Source: Patescibacteria group bacterium (lineage in GTDB: Bacteria > Patescibacteriota > Microgenomatia > CAYGWK01). Taken from it: DNA of 64,000 nt. Location of the stretch: the NCBI GenBank assembly GCA_049322615.1, contig JBMORX010000010.1, forward strand, positions 25,416 through 89,415, given 5' to 3'. Below the pieces are notes generated by a model, which saw only the letters and a program-made list of their open reading frames with translations, had not been told where the DNA came from and ran no database searches. A program made the translations under genes and the position numbers. Positions 2,085 through 44,464 of this stretch are shown one piece after another. How positions within the stretch are numbered: position 1 is the stretch's first letter; every line of letters begins with the position of its first letter.

Positions 2085-4835
2085 ATGAAAAGGATTTTGT
2101 CCATATTGGGACATTTATTGGCTTTAGGAGTGATTCTTTTATTTTGGTTTCCAATTGCCAAATCTTATTATCAGGCGGTACCGACCATTGGGGCTGATTT
2201 TTTACAATTCCCAACCTATGTCGCTTATATTAAAAACCATTTCCAGCTTCCCCCTGCTTCTTGGAAATACATTTGGTACTCTGGTTTTCCTTTAGTTTTC
2301 GATATGGCTTGGCTTCATATGTATTTGACCCTACCCCTGACTTTTTTTCTGAGTGTTGTTAATGCCTCTCGCGCTTATCTGATCTTGACGATGTTTGGAC
2401 AATTGGCTTTTTCTTATCTTTTGCTTTACGAGCTTTGCCGAAGTCGCTTTGTCTCCCTGGCGCTCACCCTCGCTCTTTCCTCCTCAGTTAATTTCTATCA
2501 TGGGCTTTGGGATGGGGGAACAGCCACTTTTTCGGCCACCCGAATGTTTCTTCCCTTAACCTTACTCTGGTTCGTCAAATATTTTAAAAGTAAAAATAAC
2601 AAATTTCTCCTTTTGTCAGGACTGATCATCGGCTTGGCGATCCTTGGCCACCCAGGCTCACTTTTTCTTATCATTCTCGGCCCGGCCGTCTTATTCTTTT
2701 TGTTTTGGCAAGATAAAGAAACTCCCCTTTTGAGCCTTAAGAAAATCTTAGGCACCATTGTTTTTACCTTAATCGGTTTTCTGATTGGCGGAGTCACTCT
2801 CTATCCAATTATCGAGCAGATTTTGACCCATCCTGGCTTTGCCCAATTCGGTCTGACGACTAAAATCCATGAAGATGCTTTAACCGGAATTTACAGCTTC
2901 AGCAATCCTTTTTTACTTTTTTTGTTTTTTCTTTTTAGCTTCTTAGTTTTCTTCAGAGGAAAGATTAGAAGAGTGCCTGAGGCGACTGCCTTTTTGATCC
3001 TTATCCTTTATGTTTTAGGTTCTTGCGTCCTTTATCTTATTGGCCATCATCCTTTATCTCAAGCTTTGGGACCGGGAAGAATTTGGTGGATTTTCTCTTT
3101 GGCTCTCGCGGGGGCAATTGCTCTTTTTTGGCAGGCTCTTTTTCCAAGTCGGGAGGGAAAATGGTGGGCGAAAAAAAATTTGCTTTCTTTTTTAAGCCTC
3201 TTGCTTTTTGTGCCTATTTTTGCTTCATTTTATCTTCCTAGCTTCAAAGAAAGACTAGATAAGATTACCGCTGAACATATGGGTTATCCTTCTAATGTTC
3301 AATTAGCAGTTATTAACGAAGACAGACAAGCAATCGAAAAAGCCATTGTTCCTTCATGGTTGAACACTCAATTAATTGATTACCGCTATTATGAAATCAG
3401 TCCCGGAGTAGAAACTTGGTGGAATTCAGTTTTTCCCCTACCCTTGGTTAAGGGTTATTATGGAATTTTTGGGGTCAAAGCGACTGACTGGCTTTATTGG
3501 GTTGATAATACGCTTTTGGGCGAGTATGTTTGGCATTTTGGCGTCCCTGAGGCGATTGCCAAAAAGCATGCTCTTTTTCTTATTGACTGGTATGCTATTC
3601 GCTATTTTGAGGGAGGAGGTTTGGCCTTGGCTGAGTATCTTGAGCAAGATCCAGGAGTGGTGGAAACCAAAACAGAAGTTAATATTGAAGCCAGTGAACC
3701 CCTCAAGCCCTATAAATTTTTTGATGAGATCACCTCGCCCATTATTCGCCCAACCAACTCACCAACGATTCTTATGGTGGGCGACACGGTCGCCTACGAT
3801 ACCTTCTTAAAGGTGTTGGCCACAGAAAACTTAAACTCGCGCTATCTTATTCCTCTTCATGGGCCGGAATATCTCGAGGATCTTTCTTCCTGGGACTTGG
3901 CAGATTTTGATGTTATTTTTCTTTACAGCTACAAATACCGTAACGAAAAAGATTTCCGTTCCCGACCTAATAGGGTTTGGGAAAAGCTTGAGGAGTATGT
4001 CCGAGCGGGGGGAAGGCTTCTGATTGAAACCGGGGAGGAGGTTATGGAATCTGATTCAAGCGCTCTTTCTTCTCGGGGTCAAGACATTCTTCCTGACGTT
4101 TTTCCGATAGAGAGAACCTTAAGAGGAGCCCTAGGAGAAAGTTGGGATTTGACCGTGACCGAGAGCCCAATTGTTGAGGGGATAGAATTTGGAAAATTTT
4201 CTCAACTTTTGTATGAAGGCTCTCCTTGGAAACTTTCTTATGCCTCAAATAGTGTTCGCCCCTGGGCGAAAACGATTTTATCTCAAGGAGGAAAGCCAAT
4301 TTTAGTTGAGGGCAAATTAGGGGAAGGGAAGGTTATCTGGAGCGGGATTAATCTTCCTTACCATTTTTTATATTATCTTAATCTAGAAGAGGGAGAATTA
4401 TTCAAAAATATTTTAGGAGAGATGGTTAGTTTAGGAAGGGAGGAAGATATTAAAACTGCTCGGGTTTGGCGAATCTCTCCGGAGAAAATTGAGGTTTCTG
4501 GAGAAAATTTTTCCGGGATAGTCTTTAAAGAGCAGGCCTATCCCGGCTGGCAAGGCAATCTTTTGGAGCCCCAAAACAAAAAACTTAAAGTTTATCGGGC
4601 TGGTCCCTATTTTATGTATTTTAAAATTCCCGAAGAGACAAAGGGAAAGATTAAAGCCAGTCTCACCTATAAAGGAGCCCCTTTGGGATGGTTATTATTT
4701 ATTATCAGCATGGAGACCATCATCTTTGTTTTCCTCGGTTTTATTTTTGAAAAAAGTCTTTCAAGGTTTATCTTAATCTTGAGCAGTAAGGTTGGAAGAA
4801 GGCTAAATACTTGGTGGGGGAAGGAGGAGGAATGA
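2085..4835 (+). CDS. Large polytopic membrane protein (GT-C-like N-terminal half, soluble C-terminal half), function unknown
   Basis: 916-aa ORF. About the first 400 aa are repeated hydrophobic segments, then a long soluble region and one C-terminal TM. Operon context with GT2 and radical SAM genes. Confidence 0.6.
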   Translation: MKRILSILGHLLALGVILLFWFPIAKSYYQAVPTIGADFLQFPTYVAYIKNHFQLPPASWKYIWYSGFPLVFDMAWLHMYLTLPLTFFLSVVNASRAYLILTMFGQLAFSYLLLYELCRSRFVSLALTLALSSSVNFYHGLWDGGTATFSATRMFLPLTLLWFVKYFKSKNNKFLLLSGLIIGLAILGHPGSLFLIILGPAVLFFLFWQDKETPLLSLKKILGTIVFTLIGFLIGGVTLYPIIEQILTHPGFAQFGLTTKIHEDALTGIYSFSNPFLLFLFFLFSFLVFFRGKIRRVPEATAFLILILYVLGSCVLYLIGHHPLSQALGPGRIWWIFSLALAGAIALFWQALFPSREGKWWAKKNLLSFLSLLLFVPIFASFYLPSFKERLDKITAEHMGYPSNVQLAVINEDRQAIEKAIVPSWLNTQLIDYRYYEISPGVETWWNSVFPLPLVKGYYGIFGVKATDWLYWVDNTLLGEYVWHFGVPEAIAKKHALFLIDWYAIRYFEGGGLALAEYLEQDPGVVETKTEVNIEASEPLKPYKFFDEITSPIIRPTNSPTILMVGDTVAYDTFLKVLATENLNSRYLIPLHGPEYLEDLSSWDLADFDVIFLYSYKYRNEKDFRSRPNRVWEKLEEYVRAGGRLLIETGEEVMESDSSALSSRGQDILPDVFPIERTLRGALGESWDLTVTESPIVEGIEFGKFSQLLYEGSPWKLSYASNSVRPWAKTILSQGGKPILVEGKLGEGKVIWSGINLPYHFLYYLNLEEGELFKNILGEMVSLGREEDIKTARVWRISPEKIEVSGENFSGIVFKEQAYPGWQGNLLEPQNKKLKVYRAGPYFMYFKIPEETKGKIKASLTYKGAPLGWLLFIISMETIIFVFLGFIFEKSLSRFILILSSKVGRRLNTWWGKEEE

Positions 4836-28763: not shown

Positions 28764-28805
28764 GGGCGATTAGCTCAGTTGGTTAGAGCAGCCCGCCAAA
28801 ATTTT
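28764..28805 (+). other. tRNA 5'-half-like leader (acceptor, D-arm, anticodon-stem strand) without a matching 3' half
   Basis: GGGCGATTAGCTCAGTTGGTTAGAGCAGCCCGCCAAAATTTT. Shares TAGAGCAGCCCGCCAAAA with the scaffold at 31291. Confidence 0.6.
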
Positions 28806-28877
28806 GGGTCGGTAGTTCACCGGTAGAACGCTTACCTGATAAGTAAGAAGTAGATGGTTCGACTCCATCCCGACCCA
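28806..28877 (+). tRNA. tRNA-Ile(GAU)
   Basis: GGGTCGG/CCGACCC acceptor, loop CTGATAA, T-arm GATGG-TTCGACT-CCATC. Confidence 0.85.
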
Positions 28878-28931
28878 CAGTTTTGAAGAAGAAGGCGAAT
28901 CGGGAAGGGCGCTCCGCTCCAAATTAGCCTC

Positions 28932-30932: not shown

Positions 30933-30961
30933 TTGACAAGACAAAATGCCTTTGTTATAAT
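30933..30961 (+). promoter_or_regulatory. Perfect consensus promoter TTGACA-17-TATAAT, likely for the tRNA-Ala/23S/5S unit
   Basis: TTGACA 30933-30938, 17-nt spacer, TATAAT 30956-30961. Confidence 0.7.
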
Positions 30962-31105
30962 GCTTTTTAGTTAGGAGTCAGTCCTAAGTTTAATTCATGA
31001 GAAGCCTAAGAAATTTAATAAGTCGTTTAAGACAGTTTTTGCGTGGGAAATAGTTTGGGCTTTTCAAAGCACATTAAGCTGGCTCCGATAAGGAGCCATT
31101 TTGTT

Positions 31106-31244
31106 TCGGAGTAATCAGAAGACTCGGAAAACTCGGAGAATCAGGCGGTCAGATTGTCAGAAATTCTGATTATCAGATTTCTCTGATCTTTCCGACGCAC
31201 TGAGTTTTCTGATTCTCTGAAACGAGGGCCCGTAGTTCAACTGG
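31106..31244 (+). repeat. Word hairpin copy 2 plus duplicated tRNA-Lys 5' fragment
   Basis: Shares actcggaaaactcggag, ctgattatcagattt and ctgagttttctgat with 21625-21743. Followed by gggcccgtagttcaactgg (compare the tRNA-Lys start gggcccgtagctcaatgg). Confidence 0.7.
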
Positions 31245-31290
31245 CCCCGTAAATCCGCCTTCGGCGGTAACGGGGTAAACAGAACATTTT

Positions 31291-31455
31291 GGGCCGTTAG
31301 CTCAACTGGCTAGAGCAGCCCGCCAAAAATTGTGAGAAGGGCCTATGGCGTAACGGTAGCGCATTTCGTTTGCAACGAAAAGGTTGGGAGTTCGATTCTC
31401 CCTAGGTCCACACAATTTAGGCGGGAGGTAGAGGGTTCGAATCCCTCACGGTCCA
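31291..31455 (+). other. tRNA-like scaffold (G3:U70, D- and T-arms, no anticodon loop) enclosing tRNA-Ala
   Basis: GGGCCGT/ACGGTCC acceptor and T-arm GAGGG-TTCGAAT-CCCTC. CCCGCC (31319-24) pairs with GGCGGG (31420-25), and AAATTGTG (31327-34) pairs with CACAATTT (31411-18). Confidence 0.6.
31339..31410 (+). tRNA. tRNA-Ala(UGC)
   Basis: GGGCCTA/TAGGTCC acceptor with G3:U70, loop TTTGCAA, T-arm GGGAG-TTCGATT-CTCCC. Confidence 0.85.
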
Positions 31456-31847
31456 CTAGCACCTTAACAATTGAAGAGAACCGCATTTATTCTAATTCAT
31501 GGCCTAATTTTTATTAAAGCAAATGGTGGATGCCTTGGTGGCAAGAGCCGAGGAAGGACGCGGCAGGTGGCGATACTCGTCGGGGAGAAACCTAGCATTC
31601 TTTGATCCGGCGGTTTCCGAATGGGGCAACCCGGCGCAGTGAAAACTGCGTCAAGCGCTGTTTCACTGCGATATTAAATAGTAAATAGTAAAAATCAAAA
31701 ATACATATTAAAATTCAAAAAGATTTTTCTCTTTAAAATTTTACTATCTATATTTACTATTTAATTTTTAATATTTGATATCGCTGCGAAGCAGCGTTGG
31801 GGAACCACCCGAACTGAAACATCTAAGTAGGGTGAGGAAAAGATAGA

Positions 31848-35174: not shown

Positions 35175-35218
35175 GGACCCGAGAGTCCATATCGACGGTC
35201 CGGTTTGGCACCTCGATA

Positions 35219-36128
35219 AACAAGAGTCGATTGTCGAGGTTAAACTCAGCTCATAACGGTGAAATCCTTATCATTTTAGAACCCAGCTTGAGAATGTTAA
35301 AATAAATGAGAGGACAATACCGTGGGAAGTTATTGGGAAAACAAAAACTTACAGAGACGATGGGTTCTTCTTAAGAAAGGCTTGCGATTGACACAAAAGC
35401 AGAGATCAGTGTTAATTGGTTCCTTACTTGGAGATGGAACATTGAGACGTGGCATAAGAGCAATCAATGTTAATTTTAAAGTTGAACACGGTTTGCGTCA
35501 GAAAGAATATGTTTTCTGGAAGTATCTGGTTTTCAGAAATTGGGTATTTACTGAACCTAAATTGAGTTACAGATATAGAGATAATGGGAAGAGATATTTA
35601 AAATCTTGGTGGTTTAGGACAGTTCGGCACCCTGTTTTAACCAAGTATTGGAAGCATTTTTACTCTGGCAGGAAAAAGATTATTCCAGATTTAATCGACA
35701 AACTGTTTGATTCATTGGTTTTGGCTGTTTGGGTCATGGATGACGGGTGTTATCAACACGGAAGAATTGATATTAGCACCTATGCTTTTACACTTAAAGA
35801 AATCCATCGTTTACAGGATGCATTAAGGACGGTGTTTGCTCTTGAATCTCACTATTTCAAGGATAGAGAAAAAGGTTATCGGATATATTTCTCTGTTTCG
35901 GAGACAAAGAAAGTTATAAATTTTATTCGTCCTTATATAATTCCTTCAATGCAGTATAAAATTGGTTTATCCCAACAACCCCGTAACGACTGATCCCTGA
36001 AGTATGCGCGCAAGTGCTTAATTTTGGGGTGAGATGGAAAGAATTCTTTCTTCCATCACACGCTGAGTCCTGGACTGTTTGGCCCAGGAAAGGTATAGTC
36101 TACACCATTAGTAATATTGGATTTTGTG
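35219..36128 (+). other. 23S intron with LAGLIDADG ORF in the peptidyl-transferase-centre region (after CACCUCGAU, ~E. coli 2500-2504)
   Basis: Exon ggcacctcgat ends at 35218 and gtcggctcatc resumes at 36129. Confidence 0.7.
35322..35993 (+). CDS. LAGLIDADG homing endonuclease (double-motif monomer)
   Basis: LIGSLLGDGTL and LAVWVMDDGCY motifs. 223 aa, GTG start. Confidence 0.8.
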   Translation: MGSYWENKNLQRRWVLLKKGLRLTQKQRSVLIGSLLGDGTLRRGIRAINVNFKVEHGLRQKEYVFWKYLVFRNWVFTEPKLSYRYRDNGKRYLKSWWFRTVRHPVLTKYWKHFYSGRKKIIPDLIDKLFDSLVLAVWVMDDGCYQHGRIDISTYAFTLKEIHRLQDALRTVFALESHYFKDREKGYRIYFSVSETKKVINFIRPYIIPSMQYKIGLSQQPRND

Positions 36129-36601
36129 GTCGGCTCATCGCATCCTCCCGCTGAAGTAGGCGGGAAGGGTTGGACTGTTCGTCCATTAAAGCGGTACGTG
36201 AGCTGGGTTCAGAACGTCGTAAGACAGTTCGGACTCTATCCAGAGCATGCGTTGATTTCTGAGGGGAGCTCTCCTTAGTACGAGAGGACTAGGAGGGAGG
36301 AATCCCTGGTGTGTCGGCTGTTCCGTCAGGAGCATCGTCGAGTAGCCACATTCCTAGTGGATAACCGCTGAAAGCATCTCAAGTGGGAAGCCCACCCCAA
36401 GATTAGAAATCGTTAAAGACCCGTCGAAGATGACGACGTTTCCCCCTTCGCTGCTTTGCAGCTTCGGGGGGACCCCGCGTAGCTCGCAAGAGCGAAGTGG
36501 GGGATAGGCTGGAGGTTAAAGGGCAGTAATGCCTTAAGCTTACCAGTACTAATCGGTCAAAAGAATTAGGCCATGAACTAGAATAAATGAAGAGGCGTAA
36601 A

Positions 36602-36974
36602 AGTTTTTGCGCTTAAGCCTTTCGGTCTCCGGAGCGGACTGGAGCCACTCCTTCCCATTCCGAACAGGATAGTGAAACAGTCCAGCGACCCGTAAAATTT
36701 GCGCAATTTAAGATTTCAAAGTATAATAAATATGCTTCGGTGATAAGAGCGCCGTCGAACTACTCCTTTCCATTCCGAACAGGATAGTAAAAGGCGGCAG
36801 CGGGGACGATAGTTAGACCTTGTGTTTAGCGAAAATACCTCATTGCCGAAGCTTTTTTATTGCGCAAATTAACGGGTCAGGGACGTTACGAAGCTTTACG
36901 TCCCGCTGACGATAGTTCCCCGTCTAACGGGGGCGAAAATAGGTCGAGGCCGGAGGACTTGAGCGCAAAAACTT
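36602..36974 (+). other. Outer 5S-like RNA interrupted by an insertion that carries a complete 5S gene
   Basis: Closing stem aagtttttgcgct (36602-14) / agcgcaaaaactt (36962-74). Contains the 5S core ccattccgaacaggatagtgaaac and gacgatagttcccc, split by 36691-36875. Confidence 0.6.
36734..36852 (+). rRNA. rrf: 5S rRNA (inner, uninterrupted copy)
   Basis: 119 nt. Helix I gcttcgg.../...ccgaagc. Core ccattccgaacaggatagtaaaag and gacgatagt. Confidence 0.8.
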
Positions 36975-37187
36975 ATCCCGTTGAACCGCGTGGTCACGCG
37001 GCATGGGACTTTGCGCGGCGCTTCAAAGACGTTATTCCGCTTACAGGGATATTGTTTTCCTCCCCCAAAAGGGGTAAAATTAAAAAAATCCTAAAAAGAA
37101 AGAAGGTTGAGATGGGTGGGAAAAACAAAAGTATCACAAGAAGCAAAAGTATCACGAGTATCACGGGCTAAAAAAGAACCCCAGACA

Positions 37188-38243
37188 ATGGCGGAACTCC
37201 TGGCATCCTCTTCTTATCAAATAAAAGGTTTGAAGCGTGGAGAAGAAAGAGAAGGGATTGTGACCGGGATTTCCTCAAAAGCAGTTTTTGTTGATATTGG
37301 TGCCAAAACCGAGGGACTGGTGGTTAACCGGGAGTTTGAAGCAGCGTGCGAATATATAAAAAATTTAAAAATTGGCGATAAAGTTTTAGTTTCCATAGTC
37401 TCTCCAGAAGACCATTTGGGTCAAATTCTTCTTTCCTTAAAAAGGGCGGCTTATACCTTGGCTTGGAAAAAATTTCTTGAGGCAGAGCATACCCAGGAAG
37501 AAGTCGAAGTTAAGGTATTAGAGGCAACCCCGGCTGGACTTTTAGTTGAAGCCTTTGGACTTTCAGGTTTTATTCCTCAATCACAAATCGGGAAAAGTTG
37601 CCAGGGGAAGGCAAAAGAGTTGATAGGTAAAAGACTTAAAGTAAAAGTCCTGGAGACAGACCAGCTTCAAAACCGCCTCGTCTTTTCCGAAAAGCAAGTG
37701 TCGGAGAAGGAAAAAATTGCCAAAGTAAAAAAATTTTTGGGAAAAGTGAAAATCGGACAAATTTTTGAAGGAGAAATAACTGGTTTTGTCCCTTTTGGAA
37801 TTTTTGTCCAAATAAAAGTTGACGGAGAAGAAATTGAAGGACTGGTTCATATTTCCGAAGTTTCTTGGGATAAGGTAGTTGACCCAACAGAACTTTTTAA
37901 GGAAGGAGAGAAAATCAAAGTTAAGGTGATTGGTAAGGACAAGGAGGGAGAAAGACTTTCTCTTTCACTTAAGCAAACAGTGCCTGATCCTTGGCAAGAG
38001 AAAGTTAAGAAATATCCGCCTGAGAGTATAATTTCCGGTAAAGTTTCTCGCCTTATTTCTTATGGAGCCTTTGTGGAGATAGAGGAGGGTTTAGAGGGAC
38101 TTTTACATATTTCAAAAATACCTCCGGAGACAAAAATTGATATTGGAGAGAAAATTACTTGTTTCGTTGAGAAAATTGAGCCTGAAAAAAGAAGACTTTC
38201 TTTGGGGTTGGTTTTAAAGGAAAAACCAGTAGGATATAAATAA
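37188..38243 (+). CDS. rpsA: 30S ribosomal protein S1 (four S1 domains)
   Basis: Repeated S1/OB motifs (G.V....s.gvFV.ig...eGlv, EGLVHISEVSWD, EGLLHISK). Start set to the ATG at 37188. Confidence 0.8.
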   Translation: MAELLASSSYQIKGLKRGEEREGIVTGISSKAVFVDIGAKTEGLVVNREFEAACEYIKNLKIGDKVLVSIVSPEDHLGQILLSLKRAAYTLAWKKFLEAEHTQEEVEVKVLEATPAGLLVEAFGLSGFIPQSQIGKSCQGKAKELIGKRLKVKVLETDQLQNRLVFSEKQVSEKEKIAKVKKFLGKVKIGQIFEGEITGFVPFGIFVQIKVDGEEIEGLVHISEVSWDKVVDPTELFKEGEKIKVKVIGKDKEGERLSLSLKQTVPDPWQEKVKKYPPESIISGKVSRLISYGAFVEIEEGLEGLLHISKIPPETKIDIGEKITCFVEKIEPEKRRLSLGLVLKEKPVGYK

Positions 38244-43574: not shown

Positions 43575-43727
43575 CGTAATCCCGCCTCTGGCGGGAAACG
43601 TGGTAGGAACGTTTTCGCCAAAGGCGAATTACGTTCCACCCTTCGTCGGGGGCATGCCCCAGACATGCACCCTTAATTCTTGATTTTAATTCTTGACATT
43701 TTTCTGAGCCAATGTTATCCTCTTTGT

Positions 43728-44388: not shown

Positions 44389-44464
44389 GGGCCGTTAGCT
44401 CAGTTGGTAGAGCGTCCCGATGGCATCGGGAAGGTCACCAGTTCAAATCTGGTACGGTCCACCA
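44389..44464 (+). tRNA. tRNA-Ala(GGC)
   Basis: GGGCCGT/ACGGTCC acceptor (G3:U70), loop ATGGCAT, T-arm ACCAG-TTCAAAT-CTGGT. CCA encoded. Confidence 0.8.

What the first reader, a model, noticed from the sequence alone, without database searches (positions are those of the whole stretch)
36602..36974. Nested 5S: a complete 5S rRNA gene lies inside a hairpin insertion within a second 5S-like gene
The inner 119-nt 5S (36734-36852) is uninterrupted. Around it, 36615-36690 and 36911-36960 together form another full 5S-like sequence. It contains ...ccattccgaacaggatagtgaaacagtccagcgacc and gacgatagttccccgtctaacgggggcgaaaatagg..., colinear with the inner copy. It is closed by a long stem, including the exact 13-mer pair aagtttttgcgct/agcgcaaaaactt. 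The interruption is bounded by the inverted repeat ccgtaaaatttgcgcaat / attgcgcaaattaacgg. It also holds a TATAAT-like box just upstream of the inner gene and a second hairpin, gtcagggacgt...acgtcccgctgac. This is the same topology as the nested tRNA-Ala, with like inside like and joined by a helix. The recurrence suggests a general mechanism in this genome rather than an accident.
Basis: seen in the sequence. Interest (0 to 1): 0.8.

Follow-up and report, generated by a model that had tools for sequence, protein, structure and literature searches.

The report
5S rRNA gene nested within 5S
In the single rRNA operon of this Patescibacteria (CPR) genome, a complete 5S rRNA gene sits on a base-paired stalk inside a second 5S gene whose two halves still fit together. 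I found no report of this gene-in-its-own-kind layout, and it recurs in a few other uncultured bacteria.

Summary
Rfam calls a full 5S at 36736-36851 (63.5 bits) and a 5S 5' half at 36634-36686 (39.3 bits). Models built without any window sequence also find the missing 3' half at about 36904-36957. Joined, the two outer pieces make a full-length 5S (67.9 bits, against 77.5 for the inner copy) with 28 of 32 consensus pairs intact. Inner and outer copies differ by 14 changed base pairs, and all 14 still pair.

The 217-nt interruption (36691-36907) lies in the 5' strand of helix V beside the three-way junction. It consists of a 17-bp stalk carrying the inner 5S, plus one more hairpin. Relatives with the same gene order have one ordinary 5S.

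A metagenome pattern scan found the same nesting downstream of 23S in four other contigs, plus one partial case. Close relatives of the one nest tested also have a single 5S, so the nests look sporadic.

Best reading: a local duplication of the stalked pre-5S unit. The inner copy is the working 5S, and the outer copy is a still-foldable shell. Function of the outer copy is untested.

A tRNA-Ala nest and a half-decayed tRNA-Ile nest in the same operon are confirmed. No published description was found.

The parts
36601..36618 (+). 5' strand of the stem that closes the whole unit; it extends outer helix I and holds the 13-mer AAGTTTTTGCGCT
   Evidence: Inverted repeat I1, 36601-36629 / 36946-36974, 29 nt, 83% complementary; paired in the minimum-energy fold
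36619..36690 (+). Outer 5S, 5' part: helix I 5' strand (36619-36629), loop A, helices II and III, loop C, and the first three bases (ACC) of helix V
   Evidence: Rfam 5S model 14-66, 39.3 bits; nhmmer profile 4-69, 38.8 bits; model R1 50.5 bits
36691..36733 (+). Leader of the insertion: 5' strand of the stalk (36690-36707) and an A/T-rich stretch holding TATAAT (36722-36727)
   Evidence: Inverted repeats I4, I5 and I2. The leader is homologous to the sequence upstream of the outer gene (CGTAAAA..TTTGCGC..TTAAG; 6 of 2000 shuffles reach the score). No promoter called
36734..36853 (+). Inner, uninterrupted 5S rRNA gene
   Evidence: Rfam 63.5 bits, model 1-120; R1 108.6 bits. 75-76% identical to the single 5S of relatives, and its helix II-III-loop C stretch is identical to L001/L002
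36854..36875 (+). Trailer of the insertion: T-run (36853-36858) and 3' strand of the stalk (36859-36875)
   Evidence: Inverted repeats I2, I4 and I5; leader/trailer duplex -19.1 kcal/mol
36876..36907 (+). Second hairpin (arms 36876-36886 and 36898-36910; its last three bases, 36908-36910, are also the first bases of the outer 3' part), the last element of the interruption
   Evidence: Formed in the fold. Model R1 aligns it to the position of 5S helix II. That is a weak hint that it is a stub of the 5' domain of the copy supplying the outer 3' half
36908..36958 (+). Outer 5S, 3' part: rest of helix V/loop E, helix IV, loop D, and helix I 3' strand (36946-36956)
   Evidence: nhmmer profile 68-117, 21.5 bits, E 7e-6; R1 27.3 bits. 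GACGATAGTT is identical to the inner copy (D6) and GCGAAAATA.. is shared (D2)
36962..36974 (+). 3' strand of the closing stem (AGCGCAAAAACTT)
   Evidence: Inverted repeat I1

Best explanation
The locus is a 5S-in-5S nest made by local duplication of the organism's own pre-5S unit, that is, the 5S gene with its flanking processing stem. The result is equivalent to a full unit placed inside a copy of itself in the 5' strand of helix V, next to the three-way junction.

Shown:
- The whole nest lies in the normal 5S position, directly after the 23S 3' end.
- Both copies keep the 5S fold.
- The inner copy sits at the tip of a long duplex.

Inferred:
- The rRNA transcript runs through the nest.
- The inner stalk (about 17 bp with a small internal loop) forms first and is cut by a double-strand-specific RNase. 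RNase III, which CPR bacteria retain, is the likely enzyme.
- Exonucleases then trim the product to the canonical, ortholog-like inner 5S, which serves the ribosome.
- The outer copy is a former 5S left as a shell, either as two paired pieces or degraded.
- Its helices changed by compensated substitutions, so that outer strands pair with each other and not with the inner copy.

Such nests arise sporadically in Patescibacteria rRNA operons and are tolerated because each RNA module folds on its own.
For: Topology and 5S identity of all three pieces.

Origin by duplication from the same genome:
- The insertion leader is homologous to the sequence upstream of the outer gene (6 of 2000 shuffles).
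- In L131, the flank plus 5' half is repeated almost identically in front of a full copy.
- Partial tandem 5S duplicates, either 5' fragment plus full copy or full copy plus 3' fragment, are common in other bacteria.
- A 150-nt copy of the tRNA-Lys upstream region plus the tRNA 5' end lies just upstream of the tRNA-Ala nest in this window.

Inner copy as the working gene:
- It outscores the outer copy in three of the four nests (77 vs 68, 83 vs 66 and 84.5 vs 70 bits); in L127 the two profile scores are not comparable, because the inner copy matches the profile only in part.
- It is closest to the single 5S of relatives.
- Outer copies carry extra hairpins in L130 and L127.

Sporadic distribution:
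- Relatives of the window organism have one plain 5S (L001-L006, 62-78% S1 identity, same 23S-5S-S1-RadA-Rho order).
- So do relatives of L127 (63-78% MreC identity).

Shells decay:
- The outer tRNA-Ile keeps only its 5' half.
- The outer tRNA-Ala has lost its anticodon loop but keeps a full cloverleaf.

Stalks are long duplexes, -19 to -36 kcal/mol, in all four nests. CPR bacteria retain RNase III (PMC12641178).
Against: - Inner and outer copies are as different as 5S genes of different genera: 9 pairs changed on both sides and 5 on one side. All 14 changed pairs still pair (1 of 20000 permutations). Loops C and E are unchanged. That is the signature of an RNA under 5S-like constraint, not of a decaying relic.
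- Ancestry is mosaic. In the window, the inner copy has the relatives' helices II and III, but the outer copy has their helix V. In L127, the outer copy is the one nearly identical to relatives in its 5' half.
- For the tRNA nests, inner and outer copies are different sequence types, so a recent self-duplication is unlikely there.
- No transcript data exist.
- The T-run after the inner gene could stop transcription before the outer 3' half.
- The 3' flanks are not significantly similar.
Confidence: 0.5

Rival explanations
1. Both copies are working 5S rRNAs. After the inner 5S is cut out, the outer RNA functions in ribosomes as a two-piece 5S held together by helix I, or as a 5S with a large expansion at the junction. 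The cell would then make two kinds of 5S from one transcript.
For: - The outer copy keeps 28 of 32 consensus pairs, and all 14 pairs that differ from the inner copy remain standard pairs.
- The protein-binding loops C and E are identical in the two copies.
- The extra hairpin in the L130 outer copy lies in loop C, at a site described as the least obstructed in expanded bacterial 5S rRNAs (positions 34-37; PMC7812874).
- A 108-nt insert next to the junction is tolerated in Halococcus ribosomes (PMC7812874 and PMC7530397).
Against: - One rRNA operon needs one 5S.
- Close relatives in two clades manage with a single 5S, so the second copy is not conserved.
- The outer copy scores below the inner one in three of the four nests; in L127 the profile scores are not comparable.
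- The L127 outer copy has altered loop E bases.
- Large expansions at positions 68-70 are described as sterically disfavoured.
- The outer tRNA-Ala in the same operon cannot decode, because it has no anticodon loop. Intact fold therefore does not prove function here.
Confidence: 0.2
2. A foreign or mobile 5S cassette inserted into the resident 5S and survived only because it brought a replacement copy. This would be a self-rescuing insertion into an essential single-copy gene, perhaps after a double-strand break in an operon full of homing endonucleases.
For: - The two copies differ as much as orthologues from different genera.
- In L127, the outer copy is the resident-like one and the inner copy has a wholly different helix I.
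- Four nests share nearly the same site, positions about 69-73.
- Three LAGLIDADG ORFs and a group I intron lie in this operon.
- The same filter would explain like-in-like for tRNA-Ala and tRNA-Ile.
Against: - There is no ORF and no Rfam intron match in the insertion.
- No further copy of its ends exists in the window.
- The ends share no sequence among the nests.
- The apparent flanking direct repeat is not significant (892 of 2000 shuffles).
- In the window, the inner copy is the one closest to relatives, and its leader resembles the resident upstream flank.
- The L127 inner 3' domain is identical to relatives, including the variable helix IV loop.
- L128 and L131 use other sites.
Confidence: 0.15
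3. The outer halves are kept as a processing or folding scaffold. A 5S-shaped (or tRNA-shaped) shell would recruit the 5S-binding proteins or RNase P/Z in cis and present the inner RNA for maturation in organisms with few RNases.
For: - Folds of the outer 5S and the outer tRNA-Ala are preserved, with compensated changes.
- CPR bacteria have about half the usual ribosome-biogenesis factors (PMC12641178, abstract listed).
- The inner RNA is always placed so that its terminal helix continues a helix of the shell.
Against: - The arrangement is not conserved. Relatives with the same reduced toolkit process a plain 5S and plain spacer tRNAs.
- The tRNA-Ile shell has decayed.
Confidence: 0.1
4. Assembly artefact: a chimeric join of two strains' 5S genes in a metagenome assembly.
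For: - The window comes from a metagenome-assembled genome.
- One of the comparison contigs, L129, looks chimeric further downstream.
- Partial tandem 5S repeats of the kind seen in L089 and L095 could be artefacts.
Against: - The junctions do not lie in shared sequence; the nearest shared stretch is a 7-mer.
- Leader and trailer are unique and complementary to each other.
- The outer halves are complementary to each other over 29 nt.
- The same topology occurs in four or five independent assemblies with unrelated sequences.
- A similar nest exists for tRNA-Ala 5 kb upstream.
Confidence: 0.03

Closest known systems
Expanded 5S rRNAs of bacteria and archaea (Stepanov & Fox 2021, PMC7812874; Halococcus morrhuae 108-nt insert, PMC7530397)
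   Same: A helix-forming insertion in a 5S gene leaves the core fold intact. Known sites cluster near the three-way junction and in loop C, where the L130 outer copy carries its extra hairpin.
   Different: - Known inserts are 13-109 nt and are not 5S-like.
- The taxa are Clostridiales, Halanaerobiales, Thermoanaerobacterales, Alteromonadales and Halobacteriales, not CPR.
- That survey discarded sequences with internal duplication.
- Here the insert is 217 nt and is itself a complete 5S on a stalk. The site, about 70-73 in the 5' strand of helix V, is not among those named in the passages I read.
Intervening sequences (IVS) of bacterial 23S/16S rRNA, cut out by RNase III without religation
   Same: An extra stem-loop bounded by complementary ends sits inside an rRNA gene. 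The expected outcome is a fragmented but still base-paired host RNA.
   Different: - IVSs replace helix tips of 23S or 16S.
- None is described in 5S, and none carries a copy of its host gene.
- Excision here is inferred, not shown.
Insertions in rRNA genes of CPR/Patescibacteria (Tsurumaki et al. 2024, PMC11270868)
   Same: Same group of organisms and same operon. This window has a group I intron in 16S and LAGLIDADG ORFs in and around 16S and 23S.
   Different: - That survey of 645 CPR 5S genes reported no insertion of 100 bp or more in any 5S gene.
- The 5S insertion here has no ORF and no intron signature.
Split and intron-containing tRNA genes of archaea (bulge-helix-bulge sites; Nanoarchaeum split tRNAs)
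   Same: Two halves of a structural RNA are brought together by a helix formed from the flanking or intervening sequence.
   Different: - No bulge-helix-bulge motif is present; the internal loop is 2 x 1 (by eye).
- The host is bacterial.
- The intervening sequence is a whole gene of the same kind.
- The outer tRNA-Ala has no anticodon loop left.
Partial tandem duplicates and remnants of 5S genes
   Same: 5' fragment plus full copy, or full copy plus 3' fragment, occur next to 5S genes in many bacteria. A 5' duplication and a 3' duplication together give exactly the nested order.
   Different: In those cases the fragments do not form a closed second 5S around the full copy, and they show no compensated divergence.

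Membership tests
5S rRNA (Rfam RF00001): inner copy | Full-length match to the covariance model above the gathering score | tested here: met
   36736-36851, 63.5 bits against 38, model 1-120; 108.6 bits with the independent model R1
5S rRNA (Rfam RF00001): outer copy | Match to the covariance model above the gathering score over the whole molecule | tested here: inconclusive
   The 5' half reaches 39.3 bits against 38 (model 14-66). cmscan did not report the 3' half. The tools cannot run Rfam on a spliced sequence. Independent profile on the spliced sequence: 67.9 bits, positions 4-117. R1 on the two parts: 50.5 and 27.3 bits
5S rRNA: outer copy | Five-helix Y-shaped fold with conserved loops C and E | tested here: met
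   28 of 32 consensus pairs; helices I 9/9, II 7/7, III 7/8. Loop C and the loop E strands are identical to the inner copy
5S rRNA: outer copy | Present in ribosomes as a stable RNA | not testable with these tools
   No transcript or ribosome data are available
RNase III-excised intervening sequence | Insertion bounded by complementary ends that form a long duplex | tested here: met
   36690-36707 / 36859-36875: 4 bp, a 2 x 1 internal loop, then 12 bp. Duplex energy -19.1 kcal/mol here and -33 to -36 in the other nests
RNase III-excised intervening sequence | Cleaved from the precursor, leaving a fragmented host rRNA | not testable with these tools
   Needs RNA end mapping
Group I / group II intron or homing-endonuclease element | Ribozyme core or endonuclease ORF inside the insertion | tested here: not met
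   No intron family matched in 35200-37300 even at E<=10. The only ORF there (36860-37171) runs across the RNA elements and has no support
Transposon / MITE | Terminal inverted repeats at both ends, target-site duplication, further copies in the genome | tested here: not met
   The right arm of the inverted repeat is internal: a 35-nt hairpin follows it, whose last three bases belong to the outer 3' part. No other copy exists in the window at up to 3 mismatches. The flanking direct repeat is not significant. Ends are unrelated among nests
Archaeal-type bulge-helix-bulge intron | Two 3-nt bulges separated by a 4-bp helix at the boundaries | tested here: not met
   By eye on the sequence: the boundaries have a 2 x 1 A-rich internal loop in both the 5S and tRNA-Ala nests
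Expanded 5S rRNA (Stepanov & Fox) | Single 5S with a helical insertion that leaves the core intact and is part of the mature RNA | tested here: inconclusive
   The core is intact and the insert is helical. Its length (217 nt) and content (a whole 5S) lie outside the described range. Retention in the mature RNA is untested

The most novel reading that the evidence does not exclude
Some Patescibacteria deliberately encode RNAs inside RNAs of the same kind. The outer 5S, and by analogy the outer tRNA-Ala, would be a selected, functional two-piece RNA. It could be a second, split 5S in ribosomes, or a cis-acting shell that recruits 5S-binding proteins or RNase P/Z. It would be kept in register with the inner gene by compensatory evolution that makes the two sets of helices mutually exclusive.
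Probability: 0.2. Interest if true: 0.85.

Novelty: new variant of a known kind. Interest (0 to 1): 0.65.

Why it matters
- The 5S rRNA is among the most uniform RNAs known. A dedicated survey of 645 CPR 5S genes reported no large insertion, and the main survey of expanded 5S rRNAs discarded sequences with internal duplication. A 5S gene split by another 5S gene would have been missed by both.
- Annotation pipelines report only the inner gene.
- The nests offer natural examples of two copies of one fold on a single transcript that must avoid mispairing. This makes a testable case for selection on helix orthogonality.
- If the outer RNA is stable, it would be the first two-piece or double 5S in bacteria.
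- If it is a relic, the locus documents how essential single-copy RNA genes can be replaced from within. The same genome shows three stages of decay: 5S, tRNA-Ala and tRNA-Ile.

Tried and rejected
- Genome-collection scan with CCATNCCGAACN{90,120}CCATNCCGAAC. The 120 loci were tandem 5S arrays, partial tandem duplicates or unrelated repeats, with no nest. Absence from cultured or representative genomes is therefore not established.
- Promoter reading of the TATAAT box: no promoter and no terminator called in 36300-37300.
- Target-site duplication (GTCCAGCGAC / GTCCCGCTGAC): not significant.
- Similarity of the 3' flanks of the inner and outer units: not significant (343 of 2000 shuffles).
- ARAGORN with introns allowed does not call the outer tRNAs. 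It does so only when an artificial loop is supplied.
- A search for a 3' half of the outer tRNA-Ile found only a chance-level match, upstream of the nest at 28665-28684.
- Looking up the window's own contig by the S1 protein returned "not on record".
- Tracing relatives of the L129 nest through its neighbouring gene led to Ignavibacteria-like contigs without rRNA. L129 is probably chimeric beyond about position 3000, which does not touch its 5S nest.
- Literature searches for nested, split or interrupted 5S returned nothing relevant.

Full report
**Context**

The window carries one bacterial-type rRNA operon on the + strand, and it is heavily interrupted.
- 16S lies at 22676-25051 and holds a group I intron at 23474-23703.
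- tRNA-Ile is at 28806 and tRNA-Ala(UGC) at 31339.
- 23S starts at 31503 and its true 3' end is at about 36562. An insertion at 35313-36001 encodes a LAGLIDADG protein.
- The flanking proteins are S1, RadA, Rho and a LysM/M23 peptidase. The 100% database match of S1 is labelled "MAG: Patescibacteria group bacterium".

**Checking the observation**

- Rfam finds a full 5S at 36736-36851 (63.5 bits) and a second hit at 36634-36686 covering model positions 14-66 (39.3 bits, gathering score 38).
- cmscan did not report the 3' complement of that half.
- I therefore built a profile from E. coli, B. subtilis, relatives' and other 5S genes, with no window sequence. It hits 36622-36687 as positions 4-69 (38.8 bits) and 36904-36953 as positions 68-117 (21.5 bits, E 7e-6). 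The two hits are exactly complementary in the profile.
- A covariance model built the same way, run with filters off, gives 108.6 bits for the inner gene, 50.5 bits for 36619-36723 and 27.3 bits (E 4.6e-8) for 36870-36957.
- Joining 36619-36690 to 36908-36958 gives a full-length profile match of 67.9 bits, against 77.5 for the inner gene.
- Threaded on the Rfam consensus structure, the joined outer RNA keeps 28 of 32 pairs. That equals the inner gene and lies within the 26-31 range of bona fide 5S genes.
- The 385-nt region folds at -155.6 kcal/mol, z = -9.0.

**Anatomy**

- Outer helix I is 36619-36629 paired with 36946-36956. It is extended by the 13-bp stem 36601-36613 / 36962-36974.
- The interruption is 36691-36907 (217 nt). 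It sits after the first three bases (ACC) of the 5' strand of helix V, beside loop A.
- The interruption holds a stalk (36690-36707 / 36859-36875: 4 bp, a 2 x 1 A-rich internal loop, then 12 bp), the inner 5S, and a further hairpin (36876-36910).
- My covariance model aligns that hairpin to the position of helix II. This is a weak hint that it is a stub of a 5' domain.
- The TATAAT at 36722-36727 is complementary to the T-run at 36853-36861, so together they extend inner helix I (I2). The promoter scan is negative.

**Inner versus outer copy**

- The copies are 64% identical. Loop C, the loop E strands and helix III are the same. Helices I, II, IV and the base of V differ.
- Of the pairs that are standard in both copies, 14 are unchanged, 5 differ on one side and 9 differ on both sides. 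All 14 changed pairs still pair in the outer copy (1 of 20000 permutations).
- That degree of compensated change equals what separates orthologous 5S genes of related genera (L001 vs L004: 9 pairs; L001 vs L003: 8 pairs).

**Relatives of the window organism**

- Six contigs share the same 23S-5S-S1-RadA-Rho order (S1 62-78% identical). Each has one plain 5S.
- The inner gene is 75-76% identical to them. Its helix II-III-loop C stretch is identical to L001/L002.
- The outer copy is 64-67% identical to all of them.
- The outer copy nevertheless carries the L001-type helix V, while the inner copy carries the L004-type. Ancestry is therefore mosaic.

**Recurrence elsewhere**

- A stricter pattern in the metagenome collection gave 8 loci. 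Four are nests of the same kind, all directly after a 23S gene:
  - L129, 2242-2550.
  - L130, 668-310 on the minus strand. Its outer copy also has a 67-nt hairpin in loop C.
  - L127, 924-1235. Its outer copy has an extra GC hairpin in helix IV.
  - L128, 7844-7520 on the minus strand.
- L131 has a 5' flank plus 5' half repeated almost exactly before a full copy, and little of the outer 3' half.
- In L129, L130 and L127 the interruption lies within two or three bases of the window's site. In L128 it lies in loop C, and in L131 in helix II.
- Leaders and trailers share no sequence between nests, but always pair with each other (-19 to -36 kcal/mol).
- In L129, 38 nt of the 3' domain are identical in the inner and outer copies, while the helix I strands differ and match their own partners.
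- Four relatives of L127 (MreC 63-78% identical, same 5S-MreC-MreD-PBP2 order) have one plain 5S.
- In L127 the outer copy is the one nearly identical to relatives in its 5' half. The inner copy has a new helix I and two compensated pairs in helix II, but a 3' domain identical to relatives.

**The same pattern in tRNAs of this operon**

- tRNA-Ala: 31291-31324 and 31420-31455 form a complete tRNA-Ala cloverleaf (G3:U70) when a 7-nt loop is supplied. In the genome, the anticodon loop is replaced by the helix AAATTGTG/CACAATTT, which carries the real tRNA-Ala(UGC) at 31339-31411.
- tRNA-Ile: upstream of tRNA-Ile(GAU) lies the 5' half of a canonical tRNA-Ile (28764-28797). It ends in the same AGAGCAGCCCGCCAAAA as the outer tRNA-Ala half. 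Its 3' half is no longer recognisable.
- tRNA-Lys fragment: a 150-nt copy of the tRNA-Lys upstream region plus the first 28 nt or so of that tRNA lies at 31101-31245.

**Interpretation**

- Like-in-like at three genes cannot be random insertion. It points to local duplication of RNA-gene units, or to a filter that lets only self-replacing insertions survive in essential single-copy genes.
- Local duplication is favoured for three reasons. The window's insertion leader is homologous to the outer gene's upstream flank. L131 looks like an intermediate. Partial tandem 5S duplicates are frequent. A 5' duplication and a 3' duplication together give exactly the nested order.
- The inner copy is the more canonical in three of the four nests (in L127 the two scores are not comparable), and the nests are not inherited across clades. 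I therefore take the inner copy as the working 5S and the outer copy as a shell.
- The compensated divergence of the helices, with unchanged loops, does not look like free decay. Two explanations remain: either the outer RNA is still under 5S-like constraint, or selection keeps outer strands paired with each other and unable to pair with the inner copy.
- These data cannot separate the two. I give the relic-shell reading 0.5 and the functional-outer readings about 0.3 together.

**Literature**

- A survey of 645 CPR 5S genes states that no insertion of 100 bp or more was found in any 5S gene (PMC11270868).
- The survey of expanded prokaryotic 5S rRNAs lists inserts of 13-109 nt at 17 sites, none in CPR, and excluded sequences with internal duplication (PMC7812874).
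- Full-text searches for nested, split or interrupted 5S found nothing.

**Verdict**

The structure is real and is not an assembly artefact. I found no report of it, and it recurs sporadically. It is best filed as a new variant of rRNA insertion or expansion: a 5S gene interrupted by a stalked copy of itself.

Noticed in passing
window 31291-31455: Nested tRNA-Ala. The outer halves 31291-31324 and 31420-31455 give a complete cloverleaf with G3:U70. The anticodon loop is replaced by an 8-bp helix carrying the real tRNA-Ala(UGC) at 31339-31411. The outer halves resemble the tRNA-Ala(GGC) at 44389 more than they resemble the inner gene.
   Followed up: partly
window 28764-28878: A canonical tRNA-Ile 5' half (28764-28797) lies 8 nt upstream of the complete tRNA-Ile(GAU). 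It ends in the same 17-mer, AGAGCAGCCCGCCAAAA, as the outer tRNA-Ala half. The matching 3' half is decayed.
   Followed up: partly
window 21624-21768 and 31101-31245: A segmental repeat of about 150 nt that includes the first 28 nt or so of tRNA-Lys. The copy at 31226-31245 leaves a tRNA 5' stub fused to a hairpin just upstream of the tRNA-Ala nest.
   Followed up: partly
window 30933-30961 and 31080-31108: A perfect TTGACA-N17-TATAAT promoter-like site with an extended TG lies upstream of tRNA-Ala/23S. It is followed by a terminator-like hairpin and T-run. Similar TTGACA..TATAAT sites precede the spacer tRNA in L003 and L004. 23S may therefore be transcribed separately from 16S.
   Followed up: no
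window 25522-25974, 26301-26807, 35322-35993; 23474-23703: Three LAGLIDADG endonuclease ORFs and a group I intron lie in or next to the 16S and 23S genes. The Rfam 16S hit ends at 25051, yet endonuclease ORFs follow it, so the 16S 3' region may be further interrupted.
   Followed up: no
window 43575-43640; L003 3012-3130: A conserved pair of hairpins (CGTAATCCCGCC..GGCGGGAAACGTGG, then TAGGAACG..CGTTCC) follows tRNA-Ala(CGC) in the window. The same pair follows the spacer tRNA-Ala in relative L003.
   Followed up: no
L130 624-558 (minus strand): The outer 5S of this nest has a second helix-bounded insertion, a 67-nt hairpin in loop C. That site (positions 34-37) is reported as permissive in expanded bacterial 5S rRNAs.
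   Followed up: partly
L128 7600-7520 (minus strand): After the inner 5S there is a 5S-like copy lacking helix III and loop C (helix II closed by GAAAU). The window hairpin at 36876-36910 may be a similar stub.
   Followed up: no
L008 41-94 and L026 2252-2206: Two uncultured Bacilli MAGs have a short 5S 5'-domain-like element (helix II/III and loop C closed by its own stem) just upstream of a shortened 5S gene.
   Followed up: no
L129 beyond about 3000: The contig switches from a CPR-like rRNA region to a gene 100% identical to one in an Ignavibacteria-like contig (L143) that has no rRNA. This is probably a chimeric assembly, and it lies outside the 5S nest.
   Followed up: partly
window 21936-22172: A small ORF between tRNA-Lys and tRNA-Gln begins MHYVYILRLENDTFYTGYTNDL, which looks like a GIY-YIG nuclease domain by eye. 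It was not searched.
   Followed up: no
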